A stretch of DNA of 64,000 nt, taken from NCBI GenBank assembly GCA_020638065.1, contig JACKJG010000013.1, forward strand, positions 19,058 through 83,057, read 5' to 3'. Under the pieces are notes generated by a model. It had not been told where the DNA came from, did not search any database, and saw only the letters and a list, made by a program, of their open reading frames with translations. A program made the translations under genes and the position numbers. Position 1 is the first letter of the stretch. Every line of letters begins with the position of its first letter. This stretch comes from Hyphomicrobiaceae bacterium. GTDB taxonomy: Bacteria > Pseudomonadota > Alphaproteobacteria > Rhizobiales > Devosiaceae. This document shows, in pieces, positions 35,404-59,376 of this stretch.

Positions 35404-35414
35404 CCGCTCCTCGA

Positions 35415-36965: not shown

Positions 36966-36970
36966 ATCAG

Positions 36971-36996
36971 AAAGGGTGGCCCTTGGACCACCCTTT
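36971..36996. terminator. Hairpin between convergent uxaC and the 37022-38155 gene (possible bidirectional terminator)
   Basis: AAAGGGTGG-N8-CCACCCTTT forms a 9-bp stem 6 nt after the uxaC stop. T/A runs are weak. Confidence 0.4.
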
Positions 36997-37021
36997 CAGC
37001 GCGACCTTTTTCAAGATGGCG

Positions 37022-38155: not shown

Positions 38156-38348
38156 ACTTCCCTCCCGAGGGGTTCTCCGTGCTGTGCCACACAATGCCCG
38201 AAACCCTTGGACGAGACTTGAAACGCAAAAAGCAAGATTGAATAAAGTTTTATCAATCCGGCATTGGCCGAAATGCGGTTGACATTGCCGGTCAGCGCCC
38301 CCAACGTTGAAATCCTTTACAAAATGCTAACGCCACGGGGACGCGACG

Positions 38349-40154
38349 ATGGCGACATTTCTCGTAATCAACACCGACGATTCCGGGTCTGGCAGCCTTC
38401 GCGACGCGATCGACGCGGCAAACGCCAATCCGGATGCGGACAAGATCGAGTTCGCGCCGTGGCTGAGTGGCAGTGAAATCAATCTGCAATCGACGCTGAC
38501 CATTTCGTCGGGGACGCTGACCATCAACGGCGATATCGACGGTGACGGCAGCCCAGACATTACCATTTCAGGTGATCAGGACGATAATGGCGCCGATACA
38601 GGCGACCTTAGAAACCTGTTGACCGTCACTGCTCAGTCCGAAGTCACTCTCAACGCCCTGCATTTCACCGGAGCATATTTTGCGAGCTATCAGCAAGGTC
38701 TTGAAGCCGCGGTTGGCATACATAATGCCGGAATACTGACGATCAAAGATTCAATTTTATCGGACATGATCGCCGTCGGCGCTCATGGGTCAAGCATCAA
38801 CAGTGACTATGTTAGTGGTCACGACGGCACGGCGGGGATCGTCAATTTCGGAACCCTCACGATCTCCGACACAATGTTCGACGAGATGCGTGCTTCCGGC
38901 GGCGATGGAAATGTCTATGCTAACCTCGTCTATGGACATGGTGGGCGCGCGACCGCCGGGATCCGCAACAACGGCACCGTTTATGCAAGCGGCATCGGTA
39001 TCAGTAACGCATACGTTCGGGACGGCGGCGGCACTGTATCAGGTATTGGAGGCGATGCGATCGCCGGCATCCAAACGACCGGCCTGTTTTCAACTGCCAA
39101 CGTTACCGGCCCGGTTGCGGTTTACAACAATACCTTTGGTTATGGCAGTGGCAGCAATGGCGACCATCTTGAGGGCGGCATCTACGGTTCCGGGATCGTC
39201 GCACTTGCGATGCCGTCCATGTCGAACGGCGGTCAGTTGGCCTATGTCGGCTTCATGGGGACCTACTTTGGATTCGGCGGCAATGACCTCATCAACAATG
39301 GTCCGCCAGACGGCTACGGCAAACTTTACGGCCAGGGCGGCAACGATACGATCATCACCTATGGCTACGGCGCAAGGGCCTATGGCGGGTCCGGCAATGA
39401 CATAATTCGCAATGTGGGCATGCTCGCCTCGACAATGGATGGCGGCTCAGGGGTTGACCTGTTCGACCTTGCCGGAAACTTCTCCGGCTTGAATTTCACC
39501 CTCAATATGGCCACTGGCGTCAGCAACATCGGCACCGTCCGCAATTTTGAAAATGTCCTTGGCGAAAACAATGCGAGCCGAAGCGACAATATTCGCGGCA
39601 CCGACGGCGCCAACGTGATTGCCGGCCGTGATGGAGACGACATTCTCAAGGGACTGGGCGGCAACGACCAGATTCTGGGTGGCAAAGGCGACGACGATAT
39701 TCGTGGTGGTGATGCCAATGACATCCTGCGCGGCGGTAACAACACCGATACGCTGAGAGGCGACAACGGCAGCGACATTGTGCATGGCGGCTCCGGAGCC
39801 GACTTCCTGTTTGGCGGCAACGCCAACGACAGGTTGCGAGGTGGCGACGGCAGCGACGAATTGCAGGGCGACAAAGGCAACGACGTGCTGCGCGGCGGCG
39901 GCGGCAAGGACACCTTCATTTTCGGCAAGGGGTTCGACAAGGATTCTGTCCGCGACTTTACCGACAATACCGATCAGATCGCTCTCAACGACAATCTGTG
40001 GAAGGGCACATTGTCCAAGACCCAGATTCTGAACCAGTTCGCAACGCTCAAGGGCAATGGCGACGTCGTCTTCGATTTCGGCAACGGCGACATATTCACG
40101 ATCAAGGACGCCGGCAGTGTCGCGATCTTCAAGAACGACATGGTCATCGTGTAG
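38349..40154 (+). CDS. P1: beta-helix (Pmp-like Gly-rich repeat) / RTX calcium-binding protein, probable T1SS substrate
   Basis: The N-terminus MATFLVINTDDSGSGSLRDAI has no signal peptide. INGDIDGDGSPDITISGD follows, then AGIxNxGxL units. About 12 GGxGxDxUx nonapeptides are present (GGNDQILGGKGDDDIRGGDANDILRGGNNTDTL..). The tail is DTFIFGKGFDKDSVRDF..KNDMVIV. Confidence 0.88.
   Translation: MATFLVINTDDSGSGSLRDAIDAANANPDADKIEFAPWLSGSEINLQSTLTISSGTLTINGDIDGDGSPDITISGDQDDNGADTGDLRNLLTVTAQSEVTLNALHFTGAYFASYQQGLEAAVGIHNAGILTIKDSILSDMIAVGAHGSSINSDYVSGHDGTAGIVNFGTLTISDTMFDEMRASGGDGNVYANLVYGHGGRATAGIRNNGTVYASGIGISNAYVRDGGGTVSGIGGDAIAGIQTTGLFSTANVTGPVAVYNNTFGYGSGSNGDHLEGGIYGSGIVALAMPSMSNGGQLAYVGFMGTYFGFGGNDLINNGPPDGYGKLYGQGGNDTIITYGYGARAYGGSGNDIIRNVGMLASTMDGGSGVDLFDLAGNFSGLNFTLNMATGVSNIGTVRNFENVLGENNASRSDNIRGTDGANVIAGRDGDDILKGLGGNDQILGGKGDDDIRGGDANDILRGGNNTDTLRGDNGSDIVHGGSGADFLFGGNANDRLRGGDGSDELQGDKGNDVLRGGGGKDTFIFGKGFDKDSVRDFTDNTDQIALNDNLWKGTLSKTQILNQFATLKGNGDVVFDFGNGDIFTIKDAGSVAIFKNDMVIV
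39636..40154 (+). repeat. Near-identical ~520-bp 3' cassette, copy 1 (RTX block + C-terminal tail of P1)
   Basis: By-eye nucleotide alignment with 41504-42022 and 45242-45760 shows only scattered substitutions (for example GGCAAC/GGCCAC and AAAGGC/AGAGGC). Confidence 0.85.
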
Positions 40155-40171
40155 GACAGGAACCGGGACGC

Positions 40172-42022
40172 ATGACAACCTTTCTTGTCATCAACAACAA
40201 TGATAGCGGCTCCGGCAGCCTTCGTCAGGCAATCCTGAACGCGGAAGAAAGCTCCAGCCCGGGCAAGGACGTCATCGAATTCGCCTCGTGGATGAGCGGC
40301 CAAACCATCCAACTGCAATCAACCCTGCAAATCCAGACCGGCAAATTGTCGATGAATTTCGACCTCGACGGCGATGGTCTTGGCGACATCACCCTGTCCG
40401 GCGACAACGGAACGCAGGGATTTTACAAAGACGCCAGCGATATCGGTCTTCTGATTCAGGTTGGCGCATCCGCGAACGTGTCCATCAGCTCCCTTAATGC
40501 GGTCGGCGGAGGTGAAAACGCAACTCAGGGCGACCGAGCAATCGCCGGGATCCAAAACTACGGCATTCTGACGCTCACCGACTCCTACATGAGCCACCTC
40601 AAGGCCTATGGCGGAACAAATTACTATTCCGGCGGCAACGCGATCTCTGGCATACATAACCAAGGGACGCTGTACGTCTCGAACACCCAATTCAATGAAC
40701 TGCGCGCCCAGGGTGGGGCCGGCACCGCCCTGAACCTGAGTAGCTACACCTACGGTTATAATGGCGGGACCGCTGCGGTCGGCATTTTCAATAGCGGGAC
40801 GGGCGGCGTTGTCGTTGAACAATTCAACGTCAGCAATGCGCGGCTGTTTGGCGGAGACGGCGCAGGCGGGTCCGCACGCAACGGCGCCGGCGGCGACACA
40901 TATCTTGGTGTGACCACGTTCGCCGGTTCTGTGGCGGGCGATCTTGGCTGGCAAGCCGCACAAAACTATTCCGGCGACAGCGGCGCCGGCGGCGCGGCGC
41001 TTCAGCCGCCAAGCGTTGAGCACGAAAACCGTGGCACCAGCGGACTTGTTGCCCGAGCGCAACCCGAATTCGGAACCATGCTTGGCGATGGAATGTACTC
41101 GTACGGTGCGGGTGGCGTGTTGATCGGGCTCGCAGGTCGCGACCGATTGAACGATTTTGGCGGCGGCGGTTTCCTGTATGGTGGTGGCGGGAACGACTAC
41201 ATCTTGACCAAAGGGGCCAATGGCAAGGCCTATGGCGGCGCGGGAAACGATGTCATCAAGAACACATCCCTGCTGGCCATCACCATGAATGGCGGAGACG
41301 GGACCGACCTGCTTGATGTCTCACAAGACATCTGGAATTTCGAGTTCAACATGGTGACAGGTGTTGCGAAAACTGTCAGCCCGTCCAATTCGGCAAAATT
41401 CTTTGATAGTTCTGCCCTTAATTTCGAAAATGTGAACGGCACAAACCAGATCGACAAAATCACCGGCACAAACGGCGCCAACATCATCATCGGTAACGAC
41501 GGCGACGACATTCTCAAGGGACTGGGCGGCAACGACCAGATTCTGGGGGGCAAAGGCGACGACGATATTCGTGGTGGTGATGCCAATGACATCCTGCGCG
41601 GCGGTAACAACACCGATACGCTGAGAGGCGACAACGGCAGCGACATCGTGCACGGCGGCTCCGGAGCAGACTTCCTGTTTGGCGGCAACGCCAACGACAG
41701 GTTGCGAGGTGGCGACGGCAGCGACGAATTGCAGGGCGACAGAGGCAACGACGTGCTGCGCGGCGGCGGCGGCAAGGACACCTTCATTTTCGGCAAGGGG
41801 TTCGACAAGGACTCTGTCCGCGACTTTACCGACAATACCGATCAGATCGCTCTCAATGACAATCTGTGGAAGGGCACATTGTCCAAGACCCAGATTCTGA
41901 ACCAGTTCGCCACGCTCAAGGGCAATGGCGACGTCGTCTTCGATTTCGGCCACGGAGACATATTCACGATCAAGGACGCCGGCAGTGTCGCGATCTTCAA
42001 GAACGACATGGTGATTATCTAA
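40172..42022 (+). CDS. P2: beta-helix / RTX calcium-binding protein paralog
   Basis: Start MTTFLVINNNDSGSGSLRQAILNAEESS lies 17 nt after the P1 stop. It has the same architecture. The track ORF start at 39998 lies inside P1 and is rejected. Confidence 0.88.
   Translation: MTTFLVINNNDSGSGSLRQAILNAEESSSPGKDVIEFASWMSGQTIQLQSTLQIQTGKLSMNFDLDGDGLGDITLSGDNGTQGFYKDASDIGLLIQVGASANVSISSLNAVGGGENATQGDRAIAGIQNYGILTLTDSYMSHLKAYGGTNYYSGGNAISGIHNQGTLYVSNTQFNELRAQGGAGTALNLSSYTYGYNGGTAAVGIFNSGTGGVVVEQFNVSNARLFGGDGAGGSARNGAGGDTYLGVTTFAGSVAGDLGWQAAQNYSGDSGAGGAALQPPSVEHENRGTSGLVARAQPEFGTMLGDGMYSYGAGGVLIGLAGRDRLNDFGGGGFLYGGGGNDYILTKGANGKAYGGAGNDVIKNTSLLAITMNGGDGTDLLDVSQDIWNFEFNMVTGVAKTVSPSNSAKFFDSSALNFENVNGTNQIDKITGTNGANIIIGNDGDDILKGLGGNDQILGGKGDDDIRGGDANDILRGGNNTDTLRGDNGSDIVHGGSGADFLFGGNANDRLRGGDGSDELQGDRGNDVLRGGGGKDTFIFGKGFDKDSVRDFTDNTDQIALNDNLWKGTLSKTQILNQFATLKGNGDVVFDFGHGDIFTIKDAGSVAIFKNDMVII
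41504..42022 (+). repeat. Near-identical ~520-bp 3' cassette, copy 2 (P2)
   Basis: See copy 1. The encoded 172 aa differ from P1 at only a few positions (K/R, N/H, terminal VIV/VII). Confidence 0.85.
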
Positions 42023-42040
42023 AAGCGGAGACCCGGACAG

Positions 42041-43822
42041 ATGGCTACATTTCTCGTCATAAATACCAACGATTCAGGCGCTGGCAGTCTACGCGATGCT
42101 ATCGAGGCGGCGGCCGCCGACCCGGATGCGGACACGATCAAGTTCGCCTCCTGGCTGAGCGGCGAAACGATTTTCCTCCAGGATACACTGACCATCGAAT
42201 CCGGGACGGTGACCATCAACGGAGACATTAATGGTGATGGAGATCCGGATGTCATCATCTCTGGCGATGCGGGAGACGATGGCAAGTCTCTTGACGACGT
42301 TGGCATTCTGCTCCAGGTCCGGTCCGGAGCAAATGCCACGATCCAGTCCATGCATTTCACCGAGGCCTACGCGAAGGGGGCGAACGGATCAGGCTATTCT
42401 GGCGGCGGCACGGCCATCGCGGGTATTTCCAACCAGGGCGATCTCAGATTCTTCGATTCCGTGCTCCAGAATGCGCAAGCTTTCGGCGGCGATGGCGCAT
42501 CATCAACAATCTACGCACGCCATGGCGGCGATGGCTTCGCCGGCATCTACAATAGTGGCACGGCCTATATCCGAGATTCGCTTCTCACCACTGTATTTGC
42601 CTATGGTGGAGACGGCGCCGATGGGACTTTGGGAGGGGACGGTGGAAACGCAACCGCCGGCTTCTGGAATTTCGGCACGTTGAGGACCATCAATGCCGGC
42701 ATGAGTAGTTTCGGTGCATTCGCTGGCGCTGGCGGAGACTCCAGCACATCGGCTGACGGCGGCGACGGTGGCAACTCAAGACTGGGAATTCTGAATTACG
42801 GATCCTACCTGCCCCTGGGCCCTTCTGTGCATTCGGCCGGAGGTGCAAGTTTTGGGTTAGGGGGAACGTCCAACGGGGGTCAGAGCGGCGCCAATGGCAC
42901 CTTTCTGGAAAACTTCGCGGCATTGCAGGCAACATATACATCTGGGTTTTCCCAATTCGGCGATGTCATAACCGTCCCCATTGCACAAACTTTCATGGGC
43001 TTGGCGGGCGCCGATAGAATCGACAATTCTGGAGGCAGCGGAAAGCTCTATGGCGGCAGCGGCAACGATTACATCCTGACCAATGGCGCCAATGTTAAGG
43101 TCCAGGGCGGCTTGGGCGATGATTTCGTAAGAAATACCGGCATCGGCAATTCCACCATGATGTACGGGGGAAAAGGCAACGACACGCTTCAGCTCGACAA
43201 TGTCGGCCGCAATTTCACGCTGAACCTTTTGTCGGGCAATGCGATCAACAACAGCAACATTTACGGTTTTGAAAACATCATTGGCGACGACGACGCCAAT
43301 TTTACCGACCGCATCACCGGCGACAATAGCCGCAACATCCTCATCGGACGCAAGGGTGCCGACATCCTGAAGGGCATGAACGGCGACGATCAGCTATTTG
43401 GCGGCGACCAGGACGACAAGCTCTTCGGCGGCAACGATGATGATCACCTGTTCGGCGGGAACAACAACGACTCGCTGCAGGGCAACGACGGCAACGATCT
43501 GCTGTTCGGCGAAAACGGCAAGGACCTTCTGGACGGCGGCAGGAACGACGATCAGCTGGTTGGCGGCGGCAACAACGATCAGTTCAAGTTCGGCAAAGGC
43601 TACGACCGCGACGTGGTCATGGATTTCCAGGACAATATCGACACACTGGTCATCAACGACAATCTTTGGAAAGGCACGTTGTCCAGGAACCAGGTCCTCA
43701 TTCAATTCGCCACGCTCAAGAATAATGGTGACGTTGTCCTGAATTTCGGCAATGGCGACATTTTCAAGATCAAGGATGTCGGCAGCGTCGATGCTCTCAA
43801 GAACGACATGACAATCGTCTAG
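42041..43822 (+). CDS. P3: beta-helix / RTX calcium-binding protein paralog
   Basis: MATFLVINTNDSGAGSLRDAI, INGDINGDGDPDVIISGD and four AGIxNxG / GGDGG units are present, followed by an RTX block. The tail DQFKFGKGYDRDVVMDF..KNDMTIV is diverged from the cassette copies. Start is 18 nt after the P2 stop. Confidence 0.88.
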   Translation: MATFLVINTNDSGAGSLRDAIEAAAADPDADTIKFASWLSGETIFLQDTLTIESGTVTINGDINGDGDPDVIISGDAGDDGKSLDDVGILLQVRSGANATIQSMHFTEAYAKGANGSGYSGGGTAIAGISNQGDLRFFDSVLQNAQAFGGDGASSTIYARHGGDGFAGIYNSGTAYIRDSLLTTVFAYGGDGADGTLGGDGGNATAGFWNFGTLRTINAGMSSFGAFAGAGGDSSTSADGGDGGNSRLGILNYGSYLPLGPSVHSAGGASFGLGGTSNGGQSGANGTFLENFAALQATYTSGFSQFGDVITVPIAQTFMGLAGADRIDNSGGSGKLYGGSGNDYILTNGANVKVQGGLGDDFVRNTGIGNSTMMYGGKGNDTLQLDNVGRNFTLNLLSGNAINNSNIYGFENIIGDDDANFTDRITGDNSRNILIGRKGADILKGMNGDDQLFGGDQDDKLFGGNDDDHLFGGNNNDSLQGNDGNDLLFGENGKDLLDGGRNDDQLVGGGNNDQFKFGKGYDRDVVMDFQDNIDTLVINDNLWKGTLSRNQVLIQFATLKNNGDVVLNFGNGDIFKIKDVGSVDALKNDMTIV

Positions 43823-43840
43823 GGCAGGAGTGAAACTCCG

Positions 43841-45760
43841 ATGACTACTTTTCTTGTCATCAACAACAATGACAGCGGCTCCGGCAGCCTTCGTCAGGCA
43901 ATCCTGAACGCCGAAGAAAGCTCAAACCCGGGCGCCGATACGATCGAGTTTGCCCCGTGGATGACCGGCCAGACGATATTTCTTTCGGAAACGCTGACCA
44001 TCCAGTCGGGAAACCTGACAATCAATGGCGACATCAACGGCGATGGTGATCCTGACATCACAATTTCTGGTGATAGCGGGGACGATGGCCGATCTCCCGA
44101 CGATGTGGGCACACTGCTTCTTGTCGACTTCAATGCAACCGCCCGGATTAATTCTCTGATATTGGCCGACGGAACCTATTACGGAGCCAATACAGGCGGC
44201 ACCTATGGCCCGGGTTACATAACTCCGGTTGCGCGATCCGGTCTTGCAGGCATTGAAAATCGGGGAACTCTAACCCTGACCGACAATGTCATCACCAATA
44301 TGTATTCCAAGGGCGGCAACGGCGATAGCAGCTACGGCATTTACGGCCTCGCGGGGGGACAGGGGACGGCCGGCATTTTGAATTCGGGTCAGTTGACGAT
44401 CACTGACACAGCGCTGGAAGGCCTTACGGCCAAAGGCGGGAACGGTGCAAATGGCTATGGCGCCTACGATGGCGGCGATGGTGGACGCGCGCAGGTCGGC
44501 ATTCTGAATGGCTTCGGCAACATCAGCCTGCGAAACGTTGGCTTCAACAACATTAACGCGCTCGGTGGACAGGGTGGAGCGGGAGACGGCGCGGCGCGCA
44601 CGGGCGGCAATGGCGGAGAAGCGACTGCGGGAATTTGGATTTACAACGGAACCTATGTCAGCGTCGGCTATTCCGCACTGGGCGCGTTTACCGCAAATCC
44701 GGGCTCGGGCGGGTCTGGCCTGGGGGGCGCAGACCCCGGAGTCCCGGGCTATTACTATGCGCCTGTCCGAAGCGCGCCGGGAATTCTGACCGATTACGAT
44801 TCTGGGTTCACCCAGTCAGATGACACCCGCCCCACCACCGGACCGGGCCAGCGCATGTTCGGTTTTGCAGGAGACGATGTGCTGACCGACGGCTTTGGAG
44901 GCGGCAAGCTCTACGGCGGTAGCGGCGATGATTTTCTTTCGTCATATGGTGCAAACGTCATTGCCTATGGCGGGTCCGGGAACGACAGGATCAAAAACCT
45001 GTCACTGAACGCCAACACGATCATGGACGGCGGCAAAGGCAATGATCTGCTCGATGTGTCGGCGGATTCCTGGAGCTTCAAGCTCAACATGACCACCGGC
45101 AGCGCAAAAACAATCGATCCCAACAATCCAACCAACCTGTATGCGCTCACCGCCCGCAATTTCGAGAACGTCATCGGCACGAACCACGTGGACAACATCA
45201 CCGGCACCAATGGCGCCAATACCATCGCCGGCAATGACGGCGACGACAATCTCAAGGGGCTGGGCGGCAACGACCAGATTCTGGGTGGCAAAGGCGACGA
45301 CGATATTCGTGGTGGTGATGCCAACGACATCCTGCGCGGCGGCAACAACATTGATACACTGAGAGGCGACAACGGCAACGACATCGTGCATGGCGGCTCC
45401 GGAGCCGACTTCCTGTTTGGCGGCAACGCCAACGACAGGTTGCGCGGCGGTGACGGCAGCGACGAATTGCAGGGCGACAGAGGCAACGACGTGCTGCGCG
45501 GCGGCGGCGGCAAGGACACCTTCATTTTCGGCAAGGGGTTCGACAAGGATTCTGTCCGCGACTTTACCGACAATACCGATCAGATCGCTCTCAATGACAA
45601 TCTGTGGAAGGGCACATTGTCCAAGACCCAGATTCTGAACCAGTTCGCTACGCTCAAGGGCAATGGCGACGTCGTCTTCGATTTCGGCCACGGCGACATA
45701 TTCACGATCAAGGACGCCGGCAGTGTCGCGATCTTCAAGAACGACATGGTGATTATCTAG
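43841..45760 (+). CDS. P4: beta-helix / RTX calcium-binding protein paralog
   Basis: The MTTFLVINNNDSGSGSLRQAILNAEESS start is nearly identical in DNA to the P2 5' end. The central region is different, and the 3' cassette is identical in type to P1/P2. Start is 18 nt after the P3 stop. Confidence 0.88.
   Translation: MTTFLVINNNDSGSGSLRQAILNAEESSNPGADTIEFAPWMTGQTIFLSETLTIQSGNLTINGDINGDGDPDITISGDSGDDGRSPDDVGTLLLVDFNATARINSLILADGTYYGANTGGTYGPGYITPVARSGLAGIENRGTLTLTDNVITNMYSKGGNGDSSYGIYGLAGGQGTAGILNSGQLTITDTALEGLTAKGGNGANGYGAYDGGDGGRAQVGILNGFGNISLRNVGFNNINALGGQGGAGDGAARTGGNGGEATAGIWIYNGTYVSVGYSALGAFTANPGSGGSGLGGADPGVPGYYYAPVRSAPGILTDYDSGFTQSDDTRPTTGPGQRMFGFAGDDVLTDGFGGGKLYGGSGDDFLSSYGANVIAYGGSGNDRIKNLSLNANTIMDGGKGNDLLDVSADSWSFKLNMTTGSAKTIDPNNPTNLYALTARNFENVIGTNHVDNITGTNGANTIAGNDGDDNLKGLGGNDQILGGKGDDDIRGGDANDILRGGNNIDTLRGDNGNDIVHGGSGADFLFGGNANDRLRGGDGSDELQGDRGNDVLRGGGGKDTFIFGKGFDKDSVRDFTDNTDQIALNDNLWKGTLSKTQILNQFATLKGNGDVVFDFGHGDIFTIKDAGSVAIFKNDMVII
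45242..45760 (+). repeat. Near-identical ~520-bp 3' cassette, copy 3 (P4)
   Basis: See copy 1. Confidence 0.85.
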
Positions 45761-45958
45761 ACGGCAACGCGTTCAGTCTCAGCCTCGCCACAGCCTCTGA
45801 ACGAAGCCGGACCGTCCGCTGGACGGTGCCGCAATCGGCATTTTCCCCGTTTTATCTAGCCCGTCTCAGACCTTTGGCGCTCCAACTTGGGACCATCGGT
45901 CAATTGCCCGACAGACCTGATCCATTTGACAATTTGGCTCCGGCTTCAGGAGATCAAT

Positions 45959-47728
45959 ATGGCCACTTTTGTCGTTACAAACACCAATGACCAGGGCTCT
46001 GGCAGCTTGCGCGATGCCCTCGCGAAGGCCGAGCAGCACACAGGCACCGATACGATCGTCTTCAATTCCAACCTCGCTGGCCAGACGATATTCCTCGCTT
46101 CGACGTTGCAGATCAAAAGCGGAAACGTCATCATCAGTGGTGACACCAACGGCGACGGCGACGCCGATATCACGATTTCCGGCGACACGACGAACAATGG
46201 CCAGGGAGCCACGGATGTCGGCACGCTGCTTTCAATAGCAGGCCAGGCAACTGCCAGTATTGCCAGCTTCGTGTTCACGGACGGATATTCGCAAGGTTTG
46301 GCGTCGAACCAGGCCGGCGTTGCCGGCGAACGGGGAATGGCTGGCATCGTCAATAAGGGCCAGCTGTCCCTTTCAGACTCCATTGTCACCAACATGGTCG
46401 CCAAGGGCGGCACTGGCGGCGGCGATGCCGTCGATACCGATGATGGTGCCGACGCCTTTGCCGGGATCGACAATACGGGCACCCTGTCGATCTCCAACTC
46501 CTACATCGGCCAGAATAGCGCCTCCTCCGCAGACGCAAACAATGCGCTCAACAATGCCGGCGCCGGTGGGCTGGCGGTGGCGGGCATCCGAAACAAGGGC
46601 CAACTGGAAGCCGACGGCGTTCTGTTCACGGGAAACGTCGCTCTCGGAGGCGCTGGCGGACAAAGCATCAACCAGACCGGCGGCGACGGTGGCGCTGCCG
46701 GAGCAGGCATTTGGCAGGATGCGGGCTTTACGAGCGGCTATATCGGTCATGAAGCCGGCACGGCCACCGGCGGTGCTTACGGCCCGGGGAATCCCGGGCC
46801 GGGCGAGAATGGAAAGAGCTATGCGGGATTTCATGCCGAAGCTCCAAGCACGTCCAGTGTGGTCGTTTCGAATGAGGCCGTTTCAGATCATTTTGGCGGC
46901 ACGGGTATCGACCTGATCAACATCGCCGCAGGACAAAACGTTTTCGCCCTTCATGGCAACGACACCATCGACAACAGGGGACTTGATGTTGCCGGCATCA
47001 TTGTCCACGCCGGCAGCGGTAACGACAGGATCTATACCGGCACGCTCGACAGCTCGTTCGGTGACACCGGCAACGACAGGATTTTTGCTCAGGGCGACGC
47101 GACGGTGAACGCAGGCCTCGGGAATGATAAGGTCACGGTAACTGCGTTCACACCGGCCAGTTCGATGAAGGCGACCGGCAGCGCGGGCAATGACACCCTG
47201 GATTTCAGCGCAATCACGGGGCAGAATTTCAAACTTGATATGCAGACGGGACTGACCTCCGGCGCCGCAACATTTGCCAGGTTCGAGCGATTCATCGGAA
47301 TCGATGACGCGGGCTTCACCGACCGTATCAACGGAACCTCCGGCAAGAACAGCATAGATGGAATGGCCGGAGACGATATTCTGAGGGGGCAAGCCGGCAA
47401 CGACACGTTGCGAGGCGGCGCAGGCAGAGATTTTCTCGATGGGGGGACTCAAAATGACAAACTGCTTGGCGGTGCCGACAGCGACACGTTCAAATTCTCC
47501 AAGAAATACGGAATCGACGTGATCCTGGATTTTGCTGACGATGTCGACACCATCCTTCTCAACGACCGGCTCTGGAAAGGAACCATGACCAAGGCGCAGG
47601 TGCTTAGGCAATTCGCGACCCTTAACGACAATGGCAACGTCAAATTCGATTTCGGCAACGGCGACAAGCTCATCATCAAAGACGTTGGCAGCATCGACGT
47701 TTTAAAGAACGACCTCGTCATCATCTAG
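45959..47728 (+). CDS. P5: beta-helix / RTX calcium-binding protein paralog (most divergent of the + array)
   Basis: MATFVVTNTNDQGSGSLRDAL is preceded by AGGAG after a 198-nt gap. ISGDTNGDGDADITISGD, AGIxNxGxL units and a shorter RTX block are present. The tail is DTFKFSKKYGIDVILDF..KNDLVII. Confidence 0.87.
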   Translation: MATFVVTNTNDQGSGSLRDALAKAEQHTGTDTIVFNSNLAGQTIFLASTLQIKSGNVIISGDTNGDGDADITISGDTTNNGQGATDVGTLLSIAGQATASIASFVFTDGYSQGLASNQAGVAGERGMAGIVNKGQLSLSDSIVTNMVAKGGTGGGDAVDTDDGADAFAGIDNTGTLSISNSYIGQNSASSADANNALNNAGAGGLAVAGIRNKGQLEADGVLFTGNVALGGAGGQSINQTGGDGGAAGAGIWQDAGFTSGYIGHEAGTATGGAYGPGNPGPGENGKSYAGFHAEAPSTSSVVVSNEAVSDHFGGTGIDLINIAAGQNVFALHGNDTIDNRGLDVAGIIVHAGSGNDRIYTGTLDSSFGDTGNDRIFAQGDATVNAGLGNDKVTVTAFTPASSMKATGSAGNDTLDFSAITGQNFKLDMQTGLTSGAATFARFERFIGIDDAGFTDRINGTSGKNSIDGMAGDDILRGQAGNDTLRGGAGRDFLDGGTQNDKLLGGADSDTFKFSKKYGIDVILDFADDVDTILLNDRLWKGTMTKAQVLRQFATLNDNGNVKFDFGNGDKLIIKDVGSIDVLKNDLVII

Positions 47729-47733
47729 ACGGC

Positions 47734-47768
47734 AAAAAAACCCCGGCATGTTACCATGCCGGGGTTTT
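47734..47768. terminator. Bidirectional rho-independent terminator between P5 and katG
   Basis: AAAAAAA-CCCCGGCATG-TTAC-CATGCCGGGG-TTTT forms a perfect 10-bp stem flanked by an A-run and a T-run. It lies 6 nt after the P5 stop and 40 nt after the katG stop. Confidence 0.85.
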
Positions 47769-47807
47769 CATTTGCCGGTGGCCGGCATCGGGCTCGAAAC
47801 AGTGCGT

Positions 47808-50084
<2,277 letters not shown>

Positions 50085-53475: not shown

Positions 53476-55371
53476 TTAAACGATCTGAATATCGTCCTTC
53501 AGCGCGCTGATGTTTCCGAAACCATCGAGACTCAATTCATCCTTGCCGAAATCCAGGACCACCTCGCCATTCACCTTTTTGGCGAACTGATTGAGAACCT
53601 GTTTTTTGGTCAGGTTGCCGTTCCACAGGTTGTGGTCCAGAACGATGGTATCGACATTGTTCTGAAAGTCTTCAACCACATCTTTGCCGTCCTTTTTGTT
53701 GAACCAGAACCTGTCGGCCCCAAGGCCACCAGTCAGACTGTCGTTCTGACGTCCCCCGCTCAGACTATCGTTTCCAGCACCGCCATCAAGCCGGTCCCGA
53801 CCGGTGCCGCCTGCCAGGATATCCTCGTTAGCACCTCCGAACAGCACGTCGTTTCCTTTGCCGCCCAAGAGGTTGTCGAGGCCCTTTCCTCCGTGCAGAT
53901 CATCATTGCCGTTTTGGCCGAACAGCTCATCATTGTTCGCGCCGCCGACGAGCAAGTCATTGCCGCCGCGGCCATGCATCATGTCATTTCCGGCAAGTCC
54001 CTGTATGACGTTTCGTGAATTCGTTCCGCTGATGTCGTCCTGCTCAGCGGCGCTGTCCGCTCCGATGAAGTTCTCGAAATCAACACCATAAAAGGCGGAG
54101 AAGTTCGACGGATTGGCCTGATTGAACGAACGTCCAAGCCCGGTTTCCATGTCAAGAAAGAACGAGAGATTGTTCTGGCTGACATCGAGCCCGTCCACGC
54201 CGGAGCCCCCATAGAGCTGAGCGGCGCCGTGGTTGGCGTGAACGATCATGTCGTCCCCTTCCGCTGCGATCACGGTCATGCCCGCGCCCTGAATATTGAT
54301 CACATCGTTGCCGCTTCCGGCATTGACATAACCACCACCGCCCTGATGCGTGAGCGTGTCATTGCCCCCCATGCTGTAGAAATTCGTGCCCACCGCGATC
54401 ATTTCACGGTCATCGCTCGCTGTTCCAAACAGGGATCCCGCAAGCTCGCTGGTCGCCAGATAGCTTGGGCCGCTGAGCTGCGAGGTCGCTGTCGACCCCG
54501 CGGGGGAATAGAACGGCCCACCCGCGATCAGTCCGCCGCTGCCACCCGTCAGCGTGCCTGTCTTGCTGGCAAACGTACCGCTTGAATAGGAACTGCCCCC
54601 GATGACGGGCCCGCCGACGGCATTGCCGCCGCCGCCACCATTAAAGGTATTGCTGTTGCCGCCATCGCCTCCCTTGACATAATTCGAGGCAAACAAGGCG
54701 CGGGTCATGCTGACGTTGCCGCCGGACGCCAAGACACCCGCATATGCGTTTCCGCCGTCACCGCCATAATAGCTGTCAGAGGATCCGCCCTGTCCTCCAA
54801 TGGCACCCAACCCGTTGAATGAGGTGTCGCGGATTGTCAGGTTTCCGCCCGTCGACAGGATTCCGGCAAACGCATTGCCGCCCTCCCCGGCATCGGTCCC
54901 TACGCCATTTGCGGCAGCACCGCCCCTGGCAATCATGTAGGTCAGAGCAGAGTTGGAAATCGTCAGATTGCCGCTGTTGAGTATGCCGGCAACTGCGGCA
55001 CCGCCCGCCTCGCCGTCGCTACTCCCTGCACTTCCTGCGCTGTAGGCGCCGTAAAAGACCATGGATTCAATGAAAACGTTGGCTCCGGATGAAACAGTCA
55101 GAAGGCCCGAAAGATCACCGCTACCCAGGCCGCCACCATCGGTATTGCCGGAGATGTAGATGTCCGGATCGCCATCCCCATCGACATCGCCATTGATGGT
55201 CACCTCTCCAGACCCAATACTCAGCGCGGAACTCAGAACAATCGGCTGGGTACCGAGCCAGGACACGAACGAAATCGTATCTGCACCGCTACTTGCCTCC
55301 GCGTCGGCAAGAGCCTGCCGCAAACTGCCAGTGCCGCTGTCGAAGTTATTGATGACCAGAAAATTCGCCAT
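53476..55371 (-). CDS. P6: beta-helix / RTX calcium-binding protein paralog
   Basis: Start MANFLVINNFDSGTGSLRQAL has GGAGAG upstream. INGDVDGDGDPDIYISGN and units such as AVAGILNSGNLTISNS..ARGG and GGDGGNAYAGVLASGGN are present. After the RTX block, the tail is DRFWFNKKDGKDVVEDF..KDDIQIV. Confidence 0.87.
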   Translation of the reverse strand: MANFLVINNFDSGTGSLRQALADAEASSGADTISFVSWLGTQPIVLSSALSIGSGEVTINGDVDGDGDPDIYISGNTDGGGLGSGDLSGLLTVSSGANVFIESMVFYGAYSAGSAGSSDGEAGGAAVAGILNSGNLTISNSALTYMIARGGAAANGVGTDAGEGGNAFAGILSTGGNLTIRDTSFNGLGAIGGQGGSSDSYYGGDGGNAYAGVLASGGNVSMTRALFASNYVKGGDGGNSNTFNGGGGGNAVGGPVIGGSSYSSGTFASKTGTLTGGSGGLIAGGPFYSPAGSTATSQLSGPSYLATSELAGSLFGTASDDREMIAVGTNFYSMGGNDTLTHQGGGGYVNAGSGNDVINIQGAGMTVIAAEGDDMIVHANHGAAQLYGGSGVDGLDVSQNNLSFFLDMETGLGRSFNQANPSNFSAFYGVDFENFIGADSAAEQDDISGTNSRNVIQGLAGNDMMHGRGGNDLLVGGANNDELFGQNGNDDLHGGKGLDNLLGGKGNDVLFGGANEDILAGGTGRDRLDGGAGNDSLSGGRQNDSLTGGLGADRFWFNKKDGKDVVEDFQNNVDTIVLDHNLWNGNLTKKQVLNQFAKKVNGEVVLDFGKDELSLDGFGNISALKDDIQIV

Positions 55372-55429
55372 CTGACTCTCCATGATCCTTGGGAGGGTAA
55401 CCAAAGCAATGCATGTCACAAAAATCGCC

Positions 55430-55473: not shown

Positions 55474-56241
55474 ATGATAATACTTGAAAAACTATACAAC
55501 AGTGCGGAATGCCATCTGGGCAACTCCAAGCCTGACTGGCCCGCCTTTGCCGCCGACGTCAAACAGGCGCTCGGTTCGGAATTGCTATTCTACCATCTCG
55601 CGCCAGTTGCTCGAGTGTCCGGCGCGCAAATGCCGGCGCCAAGGTGGTCAGAGCGGGTGACCGTCATCGCAACCAGCAACCCCGAAGCGGTGAGTGACTA
55701 TCTCAGTCAGGACTATCAGCAGGAACCCCCGGTCGCCGAAGACGCGCTGGCACCTCTCGAGCCGGTGCTGAGGACGGACTTTCTTTCGGATGACGAGTTC
55801 CGCGCCCTCGGCCCCATAGCGGACCACCAGATCAGGCTTGGCGTCTTTCATAACGCAATGGTGCCCGCCAGACTGACCGATGGTTCAACCATTCACCTGC
55901 TCCTCTGGCGTTCCGAAGAAGAGGAAAATTACAGCGAGCGCGACCGGCAGCGGCTGGCCCTGTTCATGCGCTATCTTCTCGCCTTGGTTGACACGCAGTT
56001 TCTGGCGGCCGATGCACCGGACAAGGCCGTATTGTCGTTCGGACAAAGGCATGGCCTCACCGGCGCAGAAACCAGCATTCTGTCCGATCTGCTTCAGGGG
56101 CGCTCGCCACGGGACATCGCTCACCAATCCGAAAGAAGTTATGGCACCGTCCGCTGGCACATCCAGAACATTCTGGAAAAGTGTCAGGTCGGCTCACAAA
56201 AGGATTTGCTGCGCGAGTTCTATCGACTTATCCACCACTAG
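55474..56241 (+). CDS. LuxR/FixJ-type (GerE HTH) transcriptional regulator with uncharacterised N-terminal domain
   Basis: The C-terminal LTGAETSILSDLLQGRSPRDIAHQSERSYGTVRWHIQNILEKCQVGSQKDLL is a LuxR_C-like HTH. The N-terminal 190 aa show no receiver Asp pocket or obvious autoinducer-binding motifs. The 5' end is AT-richer than the surroundings. Confidence 0.78.
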   Translation: MIILEKLYNSAECHLGNSKPDWPAFAADVKQALGSELLFYHLAPVARVSGAQMPAPRWSERVTVIATSNPEAVSDYLSQDYQQEPPVAEDALAPLEPVLRTDFLSDDEFRALGPIADHQIRLGVFHNAMVPARLTDGSTIHLLLWRSEEEENYSERDRQRLALFMRYLLALVDTQFLAADAPDKAVLSFGQRHGLTGAETSILSDLLQGRSPRDIAHQSERSYGTVRWHIQNILEKCQVGSQKDLLREFYRLIHH

Positions 56242-56311: not shown

Positions 56312-58309
56312 TTAGATGATGATATCGGTCCCGCCGATATCCTTGAGGTCAGCGCCCATGATCTTGATCTTGGTGCCGTTCGACTCAAAGATGACTTTGT
56401 CGTCGTTCGTTCCGTTCCACTCGCTGAAGTGACTAAGGGCGGCCTTTTTGTTGGAAAAACCGAAGGCCCTGAGGTCGAAACGATCCAAGCCGTCCCGGTA
56501 ATCCTTCACGGTGTCGATGCCGTCCTTCTTGCCGAATATCAGGATGTCATTTCCAGCCCCGGAACTGATGGTGTCGTTGCCGGCACCTGCATCGATTTTG
56601 TCGTTGCCCGAACCCCCAACGACCTTGTCCTTTCCGCGCCCTCCGGAAAGTGTGTCGTTGTCAGCACCGCCAAAAATAGTGTCGTCATTATCGCCACCGC
56701 TTATGACATCCCGGCCGTCCTCGCCCTTGAGGACATCTTTTCCCTTGTTTCCGTTGATCGTATCGGCACCGGTCCCGCCAAACGCCGCATCGTCGCCCCT
56801 TCCGCCATTGATCGTATCGCCACCGCCGTCCCCGAACAGCCTGTCGTTGTCGTCGTCGCCATTCAGTTGATCGGCCTGCCCGCCGCCCCGAAGCACATCG
56901 TTGCCGGAACCCCCGAAAAGAATGTCGGCGCCAGCCCGCCCTTCGATCGTGTTCTTTGCGCTCGTACCAACTACCGTGTCCTGAAAATTTTTGTTGTCAA
57001 CGCCGATGAAGTTTTCGAAGTTCATCGCCGTGCCCCAGCCCGACGTCAATACTCCGCTCGTCATATCGAACGACGCGCTTCCCGTGTCACCGGAAACATC
57101 GAGCGTGTCGATGCCCGACCCGCCATCCATCGTGGCATAGAAGGTATAGGTATTGACGATAGTATCATTTCCGGAACCGCCATAGGCCTTGGCCCCACTG
57201 CCGCTTGTGGTGATCGTGTCATCGCCCGATCCGCCATAGCAAATGCCCTGGCCCGCCGAATTGTCGATCACATCATCGCCCTGCAGACCGAAATAGGTGC
57301 CCCCATTTGCCACCGTGGCGTTGTCGGCCCCATAGGTGCCAAATCGATGGGCGGAGGAATCATGCTGAAAATCCAGTCCCGAATGATCACCAGAGCGAAA
57401 AATCGTGGATGTGTTCTGGCCAGATTGACCGGGTGTTCCAAAAGTCGGATCTGCATGTCCCTCGCCTCCGGCAGCACCCCCTCCGCCATTTGAGCCCAGA
57501 ATTCCGCTCGCGGTACCACCATTCAGCAACAATGCGCTAACCGCATCCCCGCCATCACCGCCCCAATTGTAGGCGTTGCCGCCGTTGCCACCGTTGGAAG
57601 ACGAACCCTGCGACATGGTTCGGTTGAGCACCAGCAAAGAAGACGCGCCGCCCGAATAAATCCCCGCAACGCCATCGCCACCATCGCCACCAAAGTTATA
57701 GCCATATGCCGCGGCGGCGCCGTCTGCACGATTGTTCAGCAAGAGCGAATCCGTCATCGTCAGGCTGCCACGATTGAAGACTGAGCCGAAGGCGCTCGCC
57801 CCATCCTGCGAATGACCATCAAAGTTAAAAAGGGGGCCTCCGCTGGCGCCGGCCCTCGCAAGATTGTCCCGAATGATCGAGTCCGTGATGGTCAGCGTCC
57901 CGTCATTGCGGATGCCGGCAATCGCGTCCTCGCCAGCTTGACCGGCGTTCGTCGCGTCCGCGCCTTTGGCATAGCCATCGGCGAACACAAGCGATCGCAC
58001 ATTCGCCGTCGCACCCACATTGACTTTCAGTAAGATGCCAACATCCGCCTGATCGGCACCGTCATTGCCCGTATCGCCAGAAATTGTGATGTCCGGATCA
58101 CCGTCACCATCAAGATCGCCGTCGATGGTCACGGTGCCTTGAGTGATCGTCAGTGTCGAGCCGAGATAGATGCTTTTGTCACTCACGCCAGCCAGGCTTT
58201 TGTCGAACACGATCGTGTCGACGTTTGCACTTGCGTTGGCCTGCTCGATAGCGGCCCGCAGACTGCCCGTACCGGAATCATTGAAATTGGTGACAACAAG
58301 TCTGGCCAT
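56312..58309 (-). CDS. P7: beta-helix / RTX calcium-binding protein paralog
   Basis: MARLVVTNFNDSGTGSLRAAI, IDGDLDGDGDPDITISGD, AIAGIRNDGTLTITDS and GGDGGDGVAGIYSGG are present. A long RTX block follows. The tail ILIFGKKDGIDTVKDY..GGTDIII is the most divergent of the family. Confidence 0.87.
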   Translation of the reverse strand: MARLVVTNFNDSGTGSLRAAIEQANASANVDTIVFDKSLAGVSDKSIYLGSTLTITQGTVTIDGDLDGDGDPDITISGDTGNDGADQADVGILLKVNVGATANVRSLVFADGYAKGADATNAGQAGEDAIAGIRNDGTLTITDSIIRDNLARAGASGGPLFNFDGHSQDGASAFGSVFNRGSLTMTDSLLLNNRADGAAAAYGYNFGGDGGDGVAGIYSGGASSLLVLNRTMSQGSSSNGGNGGNAYNWGGDGGDAVSALLLNGGTASGILGSNGGGGAAGGEGHADPTFGTPGQSGQNTSTIFRSGDHSGLDFQHDSSAHRFGTYGADNATVANGGTYFGLQGDDVIDNSAGQGICYGGSGDDTITTSGSGAKAYGGSGNDTIVNTYTFYATMDGGSGIDTLDVSGDTGSASFDMTSGVLTSGWGTAMNFENFIGVDNKNFQDTVVGTSAKNTIEGRAGADILFGGSGNDVLRGGGQADQLNGDDDNDRLFGDGGGDTINGGRGDDAAFGGTGADTINGNKGKDVLKGEDGRDVISGGDNDDTIFGGADNDTLSGGRGKDKVVGGSGNDKIDAGAGNDTISSGAGNDILIFGKKDGIDTVKDYRDGLDRFDLRAFGFSNKKAALSHFSEWNGTNDDKVIFESNGTKIKIMGADLKDIGGTDIII

Positions 58310-59262: not shown

Positions 59263-59376
59263 CAATCTGGTGTTCCGTGGACCCTACGTGAAGGTCCCTC
59301 GCCTGTCAGCACCCAAACACCCCGACGGCTGCGTGATTGCCGGTCGCCGGTAAAAACTTGCAGGCCGGCGGGCGGG

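What the first reader, a model, noticed from the sequence alone, without database searches (positions are those of the whole stretch)
38349..47728. Five-gene tandem array of paralogous signal-less beta-helix/RTX proteins
Five same-strand ORFs of 589-639 aa are separated by only 17, 18, 18 and 198 nt. All begin directly, with no Sec/Tat signal, with M-[AT]-T-F-[LV]-V-x-N-x-x-D-x-G-x-G-S-L-R-x-A-[IL], followed by ING-D-x-[DN]-G-D-G-x-[PA]-D-[IV]-x-I-S-G-D. Next come 3-5 Gly-rich units (A-G-I-x-N-x-G-x-L-x-[IL]-x-[DN]-S ... A-x-G-G ... G-G-[DN]-G-G). Two blocks of GGxGxDxUx nonapeptides and an ~80-aa tail complete the protein. From memory, the N-terminal motif resembles the CSLREA-type cap of parallel beta-helix proteins, and the units resemble polymorphic-membrane-protein (GGAI/FxxN) repeats. 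A secreted beta-helix module plus RTX module in clustered, recombining paralogs recalls the AlgE mannuronan C-5 epimerase family. This specific combination, copy number and tight operon packing is not something I can assign to a described system. Function (adhesin, surface-layer component, polysaccharide-modifying enzyme or toxin) is open.
Basis: partly seen in the sequence, partly recalled or inferred. Interest (0 to 1): 0.75.

Follow-up and report, generated by a model that had tools for sequence, protein, structure and literature searches.

The report
Tandem secreted beta-helix RTX protein family
Five back-to-back genes, plus three more copies nearby, encode calcium-dependent rod-shaped proteins that look built for one-step (type I) export; their front half belongs to a widespread class of bacterial surface beta-helix proteins with no known function, so this is a real but moderately novel gene family that has been reshuffled by recombination.

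Summary
Five same-strand ORFs of 601, 616, 593, 639 and 589 aa are separated by 17, 18, 18 and 198 nt and carry the motifs described.

Each protein has four parts:
- a signal-less N-terminal cap;
- four to five ~40-aa Gly-rich coils, modelled by AlphaFold2 as a beta-solenoid (pLDDT 93);
- two RTX beta-roll blocks;
- an ~80-aa tail like those of type I secreted proteases and lipases.

The N-domain misses every Pfam and NCBIfam threshold. A profile built from it nevertheless links it to the choice-of-anchor Q / POMP-repeat / Rhombotarget A (CSLREA) beta-helix class and to the cap of the lyase VexL.

The beta-helix plus RTX architecture is common in databases but has no characterised member. The array is bigger than reported: three more family members and two other RTX genes with the same tail lie at 53.4-64 kb. 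A related genome has three copies at the same locus.

The C-terminal ~190 codons of copies 1, 2 and 4 were homogenised by gene conversion. A 1-kb core of copy 1 is near-identical between the two species.

Most likely these are type I secreted, calcium-folded, non-enzymatic surface or matrix-binding proteins. A polysaccharide-active enzyme is the main rival. No secretion genes lie in the window.

The parts
38195..38348 (+). Intergenic region between the divergent DUF2336 gene and par1; the probable promoter/operator for the par1-par4 operon.
   Evidence: It contains a ~60-nt block that is almost invariant between the window and the related MAG locus L008, while flanking DNA is 75-85% identical. 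No function was tested.
38349..40154 (+). par1, 601 aa: signal-less cap, beta-helix coils, two RTX blocks and a C-terminal tail.
   Evidence: ORF; HemolysinCabind 79.2 bits; 81% identical to the L008 ortholog overall; mosaic structure.
38600..39600 (+). A ~1-kb tract inside par1 that is 95-99% nucleotide-identical to the ortholog in a different MAG species.
   Evidence: Sliding nucleotide identity. dS is 0.11 for codons 96-300 against 0.70-1.51 in flanking genes. This points to recent inter-lineage recombination; MAG chimerism is not excluded.
39584..40147 (+). par1 copy of the homogenised C-terminal block (second RTX block plus tail).
   Evidence: 95% nucleotide identity to par2 over 564 nt and 91% to par4 over 615 nt. 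Identity drops sharply upstream. The tail is 98% identical to par2 and par4 but only 49% to its own ortholog.
40172..42022 (+). par2, 616 aa.
   Evidence: Ortholog L8_b is 64.5% identical by BLASTP (65% in the global alignment).
41452..42015 (+). par2 copy of the homogenised C-terminal block.
   Evidence: Against par4 the similarity extends to 41228-42021 (86% over 797 nt).
42041..43822 (+). par3, 593 aa. It is identical to NCBI protein KDJ19_05080 (P0005) and has no ortholog in the three-gene locus. It is the protein modelled full-length.
   Evidence: AF2 layout: cap strand 3-6 and helix 17-25, coils to about residue 290, low-confidence linker 291-301, RTX rolls about 305-530, and a C-terminal cap with helices 549-556 and 583-586.
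43841..45760 (+). par4, 639 aa. It has no ortholog in the three-gene locus, and its N-domain was modelled separately.
45148..45753 (+). par4 copy of the homogenised C-terminal block.
45761..45958 (+). 198-nt spacer before par5 with two short GC hairpins followed by a T-rich run; a possible terminator and separate par5 promoter.
   Evidence: The RNA fold gives -34.5 kcal/mol, z = -1.91. A spacer of similar length (202 nt) sits before the par5 ortholog in L008 and shares its 3' half. It was not picked up by the consensus terminator scan.
45959..47728 (+). par5, 589 aa, identical to KDJ19_05130 (P0004). It is the most divergent of the five, with a shorter second RTX block.
   Evidence: It is 68% identical to P0001 in the related MAG.
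53476..55371 (-). d1, a sixth family member (631 aa from the conserved MANFLV start).
   Evidence: Full-length BLASTP to par1-5 at 36-41% identity; HemolysinCabind.
55474..56241 (+). LuxR-type (GerE HTH) regulator lying between d1 and d2.
   Evidence: PF00196, 29 bits. Any link to the family is inferred from position only.
56312..58309 (-). d2, a seventh family member (665 aa) with a longer RTX region and a different tail.
58414..59265 (-). Sulfotransferase gene between d2 and d3, found at the same place in the related MAG.
   Evidence: PF13469 and PF00685. 97% amino-acid identity to L008 with dS 1.38 and dN/dS 0.014.
59377..61269 (-). d3, an eighth family member (630 aa).
61445..62848 (-). 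d4, 467 aa: an unrelated N-domain with a GFSLGG (GxSxG) motif, followed by RTX repeats and the same type of C-terminal tail.
   Evidence: The tail is 38-41% identical to those of par1-5.
63079..63993 (-). d5: an RTX-rich ORF with the same type of tail. Its true start probably lies beyond the window end.
   Evidence: HemolysinCabind 167 bits; tail similarity.

Best explanation
The five genes encode members of an uncharacterised family of RTX exoproteins of the type I secretion (T1SS) substrate type. Their passenger is a right-handed parallel beta-helix of the choice-of-anchor Q / POMP-repeat / Rhombotarget A class.

Proposed mechanism:
1. par1-par4 are co-transcribed (17-18 nt spacers, each with a purine-rich ribosome-binding site). 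par5 has its own upstream region.
2. Each product lacks an N-terminal signal, has no cysteine and is strongly acidic. It would be recognised through its ~80-aa C-terminal domain, which ends in D/N-D-x-x-I-[IV].
3. An ABC / membrane-fusion / TolC system encoded elsewhere in the genome would export it unfolded and C-terminus first.
4. Outside the cell, Ca2+ would fold the C-terminal cap and the two RTX beta-rolls. These would template the N-terminal solenoid, which carries its own D-x-[DN]-G-D-G-x-x-D loop of the calcium-binding type.
5. The result is a rigid acidic rod.

The solenoid body has no polar residues conserved across the family, and its solved relative is a cell-surface protein with no known activity. 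The most likely role is therefore non-enzymatic: binding or building material at the cell surface or in the extracellular matrix, with each paralog showing a different face.

The family evolves by copy-number change (3 versus 5 copies at this locus), by gene conversion of the shared export module, and by exchange of core segments between lineages.

Shown: gene structure, domain order, RTX repeats, remote homology, predicted fold, recombination tracts. Inferred: export route, calcium-driven folding, operon structure, binding function.
For: - RTX repeats score above threshold in all five. The C-terminal halves align right to the C-termini of the serralysin, ZapA, PueAB lipase and EglC models.
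- Composition fits T1SS substrates: 0 Cys, net charge -31 to -41 in the five paralogs (to -48 across the eight members), 17-20% Gly. There is no signal peptide.
- AF2 gives a beta-solenoid with pLDDT 93 and 88.8.
- Foldseek matches the C-half to CyaA RTX, lipases, serralysins and AlgE R-modules. It matches the N-domain only to right-handed beta-helix proteins, with VexL best at 1.7e-4.
- An exhaustive HMM search with the N-domain profile gives 18,393 representatives at E<=1e-3 and 104 at E<=1e-30, many starting at residue 1. 46 of 49 top representatives carry HemolysinCabind.
- Among 61 homologs, 16 match choice_anch_Q, 7 POMP_repeat and 5 GlyGly_RbtA. The broader profile hits PDB Rhombotarget A at 1.2e-11.
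- RbtA is described as a cell-surface protein whose beta-helix is the first structure solved for its class, with no function assigned (PMC12643943).
- Conserved columns in the coils are Gly, Ile, Asn, Leu and Ala only. Conserved charged residues cluster in the cap.
- The same tail sits on unrelated passengers d4 and d5, which shows it is a portable export module.
- The tail tree conflicts with the coil tree: par1 coils are 97% identical to ortholog L8a, but the par1 tail is 98% identical to par2 and par4 and 49% to L8a.
Against: - No ABC transporter, membrane-fusion protein or TolC gene lies in the 64-kb window. Every ORF of 400 aa or more is accounted for (dcw cluster, LigA, RecN, M24 peptidase, UxaC, KatG and the RTX genes). 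T1SS genes were also not linked within 10 kb in related loci. Export is therefore inferred from substrate features only.
- The window proteins fail every curated threshold for the beta-helix families, and the RbtA link needs the broader profile. The narrow profile A2 did not reach RbtA.
- Foldseek TM-scores for the N-domain are low (0.2-0.3), and the best matches are enzymes, not adhesins.
- A missing conserved catalytic cluster is negative evidence from alignments of repetitive sequence, which can be misaligned.
- No model coordinates were available to check surfaces or calcium sites.
Confidence: 0.55

Rival explanations
1. The N-terminal beta-helices are polysaccharide-active enzymes (lyase, epimerase or hydrolase). 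The paralog set would tailor an acidic or sulfated exopolysaccharide outside the cell, as the seven AlgE mannuronan C-5 epimerases do in Azotobacter or the T1SS-secreted glycanases PlyA/PlyB/EglC do in rhizobia.
For: - The best fold matches of the N-domain are polysaccharide lyases and hydrolases: VexL, RbmB, PfPL1, polygalacturonases, PL6 lyases, AlgG and phage tailspike depolymerases.
- The cap is sequence-homologous to that of VexL (E 1.3e-7).
- The architecture and clustering parallel AlgE (A-module beta-helix, RTX R-modules, no signal peptide).
- A strongly conserved sulfotransferase and an EamA transporter lie among the downstream family members in both genomes.
Against: - No hit to any PL, GH or AlgE-type model at E<=10, and no DPH[DE] motif.
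- No charged or histidine residue in the coils is conserved across the five paralogs except one Asp in the first coil. None is conserved across 49 diverse representatives.
- Fold matches have TM 0.2-0.3, which fits the shared beta-helix fold rather than a specific family.
- The nearest sequence-detectable solved relative, RbtA, has no reported activity.
Confidence: 0.25
2. They are subunits of a calcium-dependent surface layer or another self-assembling lattice or fibre, like T1SS-secreted RTX S-layer proteins such as Caulobacter RsaA.
For: - The export type, acidity and calcium dependence are the same.
- There is a weak Foldseek match to RsaA (E 0.025, probability 0.16-0.20).
- Rigid rods are suited to packing.
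Against: - S-layers are normally built from one very abundant protein. Here there are eight paralogs with 34-48% identical N-domains.
- The RsaA match is not significant.
- The copy number differs between close relatives.
Confidence: 0.1
3. They are RTX toxins or bacteriocins.
For: Sub-threshold NCBIfam similarity to RTX hemolysin models (40-101 bits against a cut-off of 1000), confined to the repeat region.
Against: - No hydrophobic pore-forming domain and no adjacent acyltransferase or immunity gene.
- The hits cover only the RTX repeats.
- The N-domain is a beta-helix.
Confidence: 0.03
4. The five-gene array or its mosaic pattern is an artefact of metagenome assembly across repeated sequence.
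For: - The window is from a short-read MAG.
- The NCBI version is split inside the par4 tail.
- par1 and par4 are not on record as exact proteins in other assemblies.
- The two MAGs compared come from neighbouring sequencing runs.
Against: - Contigs from four other samples reproduce par3 with its junctions to par2 and par4, and reproduce par5.
- The repeated blocks differ at 2-9% of positions, mostly synonymous, so they can be assembled.
- A related genome has the same locus with three copies on a 938-kb contig.
Confidence: 0.04

Closest known systems
Rhombotarget A (RbtA) of Acinetobacter baumannii and the CSLREA / choice-of-anchor Q / POMP-repeat beta-helix class (PDB 9CDU/9CDV)
   Same: Both have an N-terminal cap of the x-V-T-N-x-x-D-x-G-x-G-S-L-R-x-A type, followed by GG[AI]I...FxxN-like coils that form a right-handed beta-helix. 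Both are extracellular or surface proteins with no known activity. The broad family profile hits RbtA at E 1.2e-11, and 5 of 61 homologs match TIGR04212.
   Different: RbtA has a Sec signal, is exported by the type II system and is anchored through a GlyGly-CTERM/rhombosortase signal. The window proteins have no signal peptide and carry RTX repeats plus a T1SS-type tail. The window proteins do not reach the thresholds of TIGR04212, TIGR04214, NF041518, TIGR01376 or PF02415. They have Gly where CSLREA has Cys.
AlgE1-7 mannuronan C-5 epimerases of Azotobacter vinelandii
   Same: Both are signal-less, with an N-terminal beta-helix followed by RTX modules and presumed T1SS export, both depend on calcium, and both form a multi-gene, partly clustered and recombining paralog family. 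The RTX part matches the AlgE6 R2 and R3 structures in Foldseek (E 1e-3 to 2e-2).
   Different: The beta-helix is not an A-module. There is no HMM hit and no DPH[DE] catalytic motif, the coils are thinner and Gly-rich, and the alginate epimerase/lyase entry 8ja4 does not appear among the top 50 N-domain-only fold matches.
Serralysin / lipase (LipA, PueAB) class of T1SS substrates
   Same: They share the RTX beta-roll, a C-terminal capping domain that aligns to the very end of those models, and a last-residue pattern of an acidic residue followed by hydrophobic residues. The terminal-motif rule itself is from my own knowledge of this class.
   Different: The passenger domain is a beta-helix rather than a metalloprotease or an alpha/beta hydrolase. 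No cognate transporter is encoded nearby.
VexL, the Vi-antigen depolymerase (PDB 6FI2), and pectate-lyase-like beta-helix enzymes
   Same: The cap is homologous (E 1.3e-7), and VexL is the best N-domain fold match (E 1.7e-4, probability 0.99).
   Different: The TM-score is 0.22, and no catalytic residues could be mapped.

Membership tests
RTX proteins secreted by type I systems | Tandem GGxGxDxUx calcium-binding nonapeptides in the C-terminal half | tested here: met
   PF00353 scores 49.6-80.3 bits (cut-off 23) in all five. AF2 models beta-rolls, and Foldseek matches CyaA RTX, serralysins and lipases.
RTX proteins secreted by type I systems | No cleavable N-terminal signal; uncleaved C-terminal secretion domain | tested here: met
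   The ORFs start at the cap strand. The tails align to the C-terminal ends of the serralysin, PueAB and ZapA models. The proteins end in ND[ML][VT]I[IV]. The secretion function itself was not tested.
RTX proteins secreted by type I systems | Acidic, Cys-poor, Gly/Asp-rich composition | tested here: met
   0 Cys, net charge -31 to -41, Gly 17-20% and Asp 9-11% in the five paralogs.
RTX proteins secreted by type I systems | Cognate ABC transporter, membrane-fusion protein and TolC-like channel | not testable with these tools
   None lies in the 64-kb window or within 10 kb of relatives. The rest of the genome is not available. Unlinked transporters are common in alphaproteobacteria (PrsDE; PMC3034196).
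CSLREA_Nterm (TIGR04214) | HMM score at or above 25 bits; C-S-L-R-E-A motif | tested here: not met
   Only par1 gives a hit, at 12.2 bits and E 0.13. The motif here is G-S-L-R-[DQ]-A.
Choice-of-anchor Q (NF041518), POMP_repeat (TIGR01376), Chlam_PMP (PF02415) and Beta_helix (PF13229) | HMM match above the curated cut-off | tested here: not met
   The window proteins give no hit even at E<=10. The link is transitive: homologs found at E 1e-10 to 1e-23 with the window profile carry these domains.
Rhombotarget A (TIGR04212) | Beta-helix plus GlyGly-CTERM sorting signal | tested here: not met
   There is no GlyGly-CTERM; the C-terminus is RTX plus a T1SS-type tail. The beta-helix is related only through the broad profile.
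AlgE mannuronan C-5 epimerases | A-module with the catalytic DPH[DE]-type motif | tested here: not met
   The motif is absent. There is no family hit. Fold similarity is limited to the R-modules.
Right-handed parallel beta-helix (pectate-lyase-like) fold | Stacked three-strand coils with an N-terminal capping helix | tested here: met
   The AF2 strand pattern has ~40-residue periodicity and a cap helix at 17-25. The N-domain Foldseek list is dominated by proteins of this fold. This rests on predictions only.

The most novel reading that the evidence does not exclude
The family could be a new class of secreted, calcium-activated beta-helix glycan-binding or glycan-modifying modules that act on a sulfated or acidic matrix polysaccharide. 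The locus would then be a recombination hot spot where export modules are homogenised within a genome while functional cores are swapped between co-resident species. That would be a diversification system for extracellular matrix proteins in a free-living bacterium, comparable to the variable surface-protein families of pathogens.
Probability: 0.15. Interest if true: 0.6.

Novelty: new variant of a known kind. Interest (0 to 1): 0.4.

Why it matters
The choice-of-anchor Q / RbtA-type beta-helix is among the more common bacterial surface modules, with about 18,000 representative clusters detectable using this profile. No function is known for it, and its first structure was published only in 2025.

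This locus shows the module in a type I / RTX setting. It offers eight natural variants in one genome, a three-copy comparison genome and clear recombination tracts. Together these give a compact system for asking what the module binds or does, and how export modules and passengers are shuffled.

It does not reveal a new secretion principle or a new fold.

Tried and rejected
- Direct family assignment. Pfam and NCBIfam scans of the full proteins and of the N-domains alone at E<=10 gave nothing beyond RTX.
- Single-sequence homolog search with the par4 N-domain. It found only three proteins, because Gly-rich words swamp the candidate list. The profile search was needed.
- PDB sequence search with the narrow profile A2. 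It gave only spurious OspB hits and VexL at E 0.18.
- Foldseek with the full-length model. The RTX half dominated it and it said nothing about the N-domain, so a second model of the N-domain alone was made.
- Search for T1SS genes in the window and next to relatives. None was found.
- Literature searches. 'choice-of-anchor Q' and 'Pmp-like' plus RTX returned nothing.
- Consensus promoter and terminator scan. It did not exceed the shuffled expectation.
- Exact-protein look-ups of par1 and par4 in other assemblies. They returned nothing, so the par1 mosaic lacks independent assembly support.
- Toxin, antifreeze and assembly-artefact readings. All were considered and judged unlikely.

Full report
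**Observation.**
- par1 38349-40154, 601 aa
- par2 40172-42022, 616 aa
- par3 42041-43822, 593 aa
- par4 43841-45760, 639 aa
- par5 45959-47728, 589 aa

All lie on the + strand, separated by 17, 18, 18 and 198 nt. The protein alignment shows the invariant start M-x-T-F-x-V-x-N-x-x-D-x-G-x-G-S-L-R-x-A and the D-x-[DN]-G-D-G-x-x-D...S-G-D block. It also shows Gly-rich ~40-aa units, of which I count four to five per protein, two blocks of RTX nonapeptides and a conserved ~80-aa tail. par1, par3 and par4 cannot extend upstream. The upstream extensions of the mechanical ORFs for par2 and par5 are not signal-like, and orthologs are annotated from the conserved Met.

**Provenance and reality of the array.** par3 and par5 are 100% identical to NCBI proteins KDJ19_05080 and KDJ19_05130 of a Hyphomicrobiaceae MAG. 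Window 32041-45713 and 45727-48849 are identical to contigs JAGRKP010000070.1 and JAGRKP010000071.1 of GCA_020442265.1. The NCBI copy is split inside the par4 tail. Contigs from other ENA and Logan samples independently carry par3 with the end of par2 and the start of par4, and carry par5.

A second Hyphomicrobiaceae MAG (GCA_020638095.1, a 938-kb contig) has the same neighbourhood: UxaC, divergent DUF2336, the array, then KatG and a LysR regulator. It holds only three copies, orthologous to par1 (80%), par2 (64.5%) and par5 (68%). par3 and par4 are therefore extra copies in the window genome.

**Domain content.** Pfam finds only HemolysinCabind (49.6-80.3 bits). The NCBIfam hits are all sub-threshold and confined to the RTX region and tail. 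They do run to the C-terminal ends of the serralysin, ZapA, PueAB lipase and EglC models. The N-terminal ~320 aa hit nothing, except that par1 gives a 12.2-bit match to CSLREA_Nterm against a cut-off of 25. The proteins have no cysteine, net charges of -31 to -41 and 17-20% glycine.

**Structure.** AlphaFold2 models full-length par3 with mean pLDDT 93 and pTM 0.85. The model is laid out as follows:
- a first strand at residues 3-6 and a capping helix at 17-25;
- regular three-strand coils to about residue 290;
- an unconfident linker at 291-301;
- RTX rolls from about 305 to 530;
- a C-terminal cap with two short helices.

The par4 N-domain alone gives pLDDT 88.8. In Foldseek the full-length model matches CyaA RTX blocks, family I.3 lipases, serralysins and AlgE R-modules. 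The N-domain matches only right-handed beta-helix proteins: VexL at E 1.7e-4, then RbmB, PfPL1, polygalacturonases, tailspikes, AlgG and PL6 lyases. All have low TM-scores of 0.2-0.3.

**Family relations.** A profile of the N-domains finds 342 proteins in the word-indexed search. Some of these carry PF02415 (Chlam_PMP), PF13229 (Beta_helix) or DUF4347, or are named 'choice-of-anchor Q' or 'predicted outer membrane repeat protein'.

The exhaustive HMMER search gives 18,393 representative proteins at E<=1e-3, 2,358 at E<=1e-10 and 104 at E<=1e-30. Many have the domain starting at residue 1. Of 49 top representatives, 46 also have RTX repeats, and their consensus reproduces the whole architecture including the tail. 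Of 61 homologs, 16 match choice_anch_Q, 7 POMP_repeat, 5 GlyGly_RbtA, 9 NosD and 1 CSLREA_Nterm.

The 61-sequence profile hits two solved structures. Rhombotarget A (9CDU) matches at E 1.2e-11 over the coils. RbtA is described as a recently identified A. baumannii cell-surface protein whose beta-helix is the first structure of its class; no function is given (PMC12643943). A CSLREA-domain protein is a type II secretion substrate in Acinetobacter (bioRxiv 10.1101/2022.02.01.478765).

A genome scan finds the cap motif in cyanobacteria, Acidobacteriota, Planctomycetota, Chloroflexota and Pseudomonadota. It sits either at residue ~3 together with RTX repeats, or at residue ~22-50 where a signal peptide would fit, or inside giant proteins. 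Adjacent pairs of such genes are common, and T1SS genes are not linked.

**Wider locus.** The window holds three more full-length family members on the minus strand: d1 53476-55371, d2 56312-58309 and d3 59377-61269. They are 35-41% identical to par1-5. Two other RTX proteins carry the same kind of tail on different passengers: d4 61445-62848, which has a GxSxG motif, and d5 63079-63993. A LuxR-type regulator and a sulfotransferase lie among them. No T1SS component is in the window; upstream are the dcw cell-division cluster, ligA and recN.

**Evolution.** The N-domains of all eight members are about equally diverged (34-48% identity), so the paralogs are old.

By contrast, the last ~500-560 nt of par1, par2 and par4 are 93-100% identical in 60-nt bins, with a sharp drop upstream. 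dS among them is 0.15-0.17 and dN/dS is 0.08-0.19. The trees conflict. par1 coils are 97% identical to ortholog L8a, yet the par1 tail is 98% identical to par2 and par4 and 49% to L8a. This shows gene conversion of the C-terminal export module after the two species split.

Separately, window ~38600-39600 inside par1 is 95-99% nucleotide-identical to the other MAG, against a 75-85% background. dS there is 0.11, against 0.70-1.51 in flanking genes. This indicates recent exchange between lineages, with MAG chimerism as a caveat. The right edge of this tract coincides with the start of the conversion tract.

**Mechanism.** I infer type I export that is C-terminus first and driven by the tail, then calcium-triggered folding of the RTX rolls, which templates the N-terminal solenoid. 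The solenoid has its own DxDxDG-type loop. The end product would be an acidic rod. The solenoid coils have no polar residues conserved across paralogs or across the wider family. Their nearest solved relative is a surface protein without known activity. I therefore favour a non-enzymatic binding or matrix role (confidence about 0.55 for the whole statement, higher for the export class alone).

The main rival is a polysaccharide-active enzyme family in the manner of AlgE (0.25). It is supported by the enzyme-rich fold matches, the VexL cap homology and the conserved sulfotransferase nearby. It is weakened by the lack of any catalytic signature (no DPH[DE], no PL or GH model hit). S-layer, toxin and assembly-artefact readings are less likely.

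**Novelty.** Both modules are known, and the fusion is frequent in sequence databases. However, no member is characterised, and I found no paper describing it. I classify it as a new variant of a known kind: an RTX exoprotein with an RbtA-class beta-helix passenger. The points of interest are the eight-member local expansion and the two kinds of recombination tract.

Noticed in passing
window 38600-39600 (inside par1) versus L008 about 6370-7370: A ~1-kb tract is 95-99% nucleotide-identical between two MAG species whose flanking genes are 75-85% identical. dS is 0.11 against 0.70-1.51. This looks like recent inter-lineage recombination of the beta-helix core. Its right edge coincides with the start of the intragenomic conversion tract. 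MAG chimerism is not excluded.
   Followed up: partly
window 53476-63993, minus strand: A second cluster of RTX genes holds three more members of the same family (d1, d2, d3), a GxSxG (lipase-like) RTX protein (d4) and an RTX-only ORF cut by the window end (d5). Four of the five (not d2) share the same type of C-terminal tail. That makes ten RTX genes in 26 kb.
   Followed up: partly
window 58414-59265 (-): A sulfotransferase gene sits between d2 and d3, at the same position in the related MAG. It is 97% amino-acid identical with dS 1.38 and dN/dS 0.014, far more constrained than its neighbours.
   Followed up: partly
window 55474-56241 (+): A LuxR-type (GerE HTH) regulator lies between d1 and d2. 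Both d1 and this regulator are absent from the syntenic region of the related MAG.
   Followed up: no
window 38195-38348: The divergent intergenic region between DUF2336 and par1 contains a ~60-nt block (GAAACCCTTGGA.GAGACTTGAAACGCA....GCAAGATTGA.TAAAGTTTTATC) that is nearly invariant between the two MAGs. It is better conserved than the surrounding coding DNA and may be a regulatory site.
   Followed up: partly
window 45713-45727: The NCBI copy of this MAG is split into two contigs with 13 nt missing inside the par4 tail, whereas the window reads through with an intact ORF. par1 and par4 are also not retrievable as exact proteins from the contig index, although they are listed as called genes on L001.
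   Followed up: partly
window 32007-33134 (+) and 33555-34394 (+): Two ORFs of 375 and 279 aa have no Pfam match. The second overlaps a 301-aa ORF on the opposite strand, and the MAG annotation calls minus-strand genes in this region instead (270 aa with no Pfam hit, and MTHFR). They may not be real genes.
   Followed up: no
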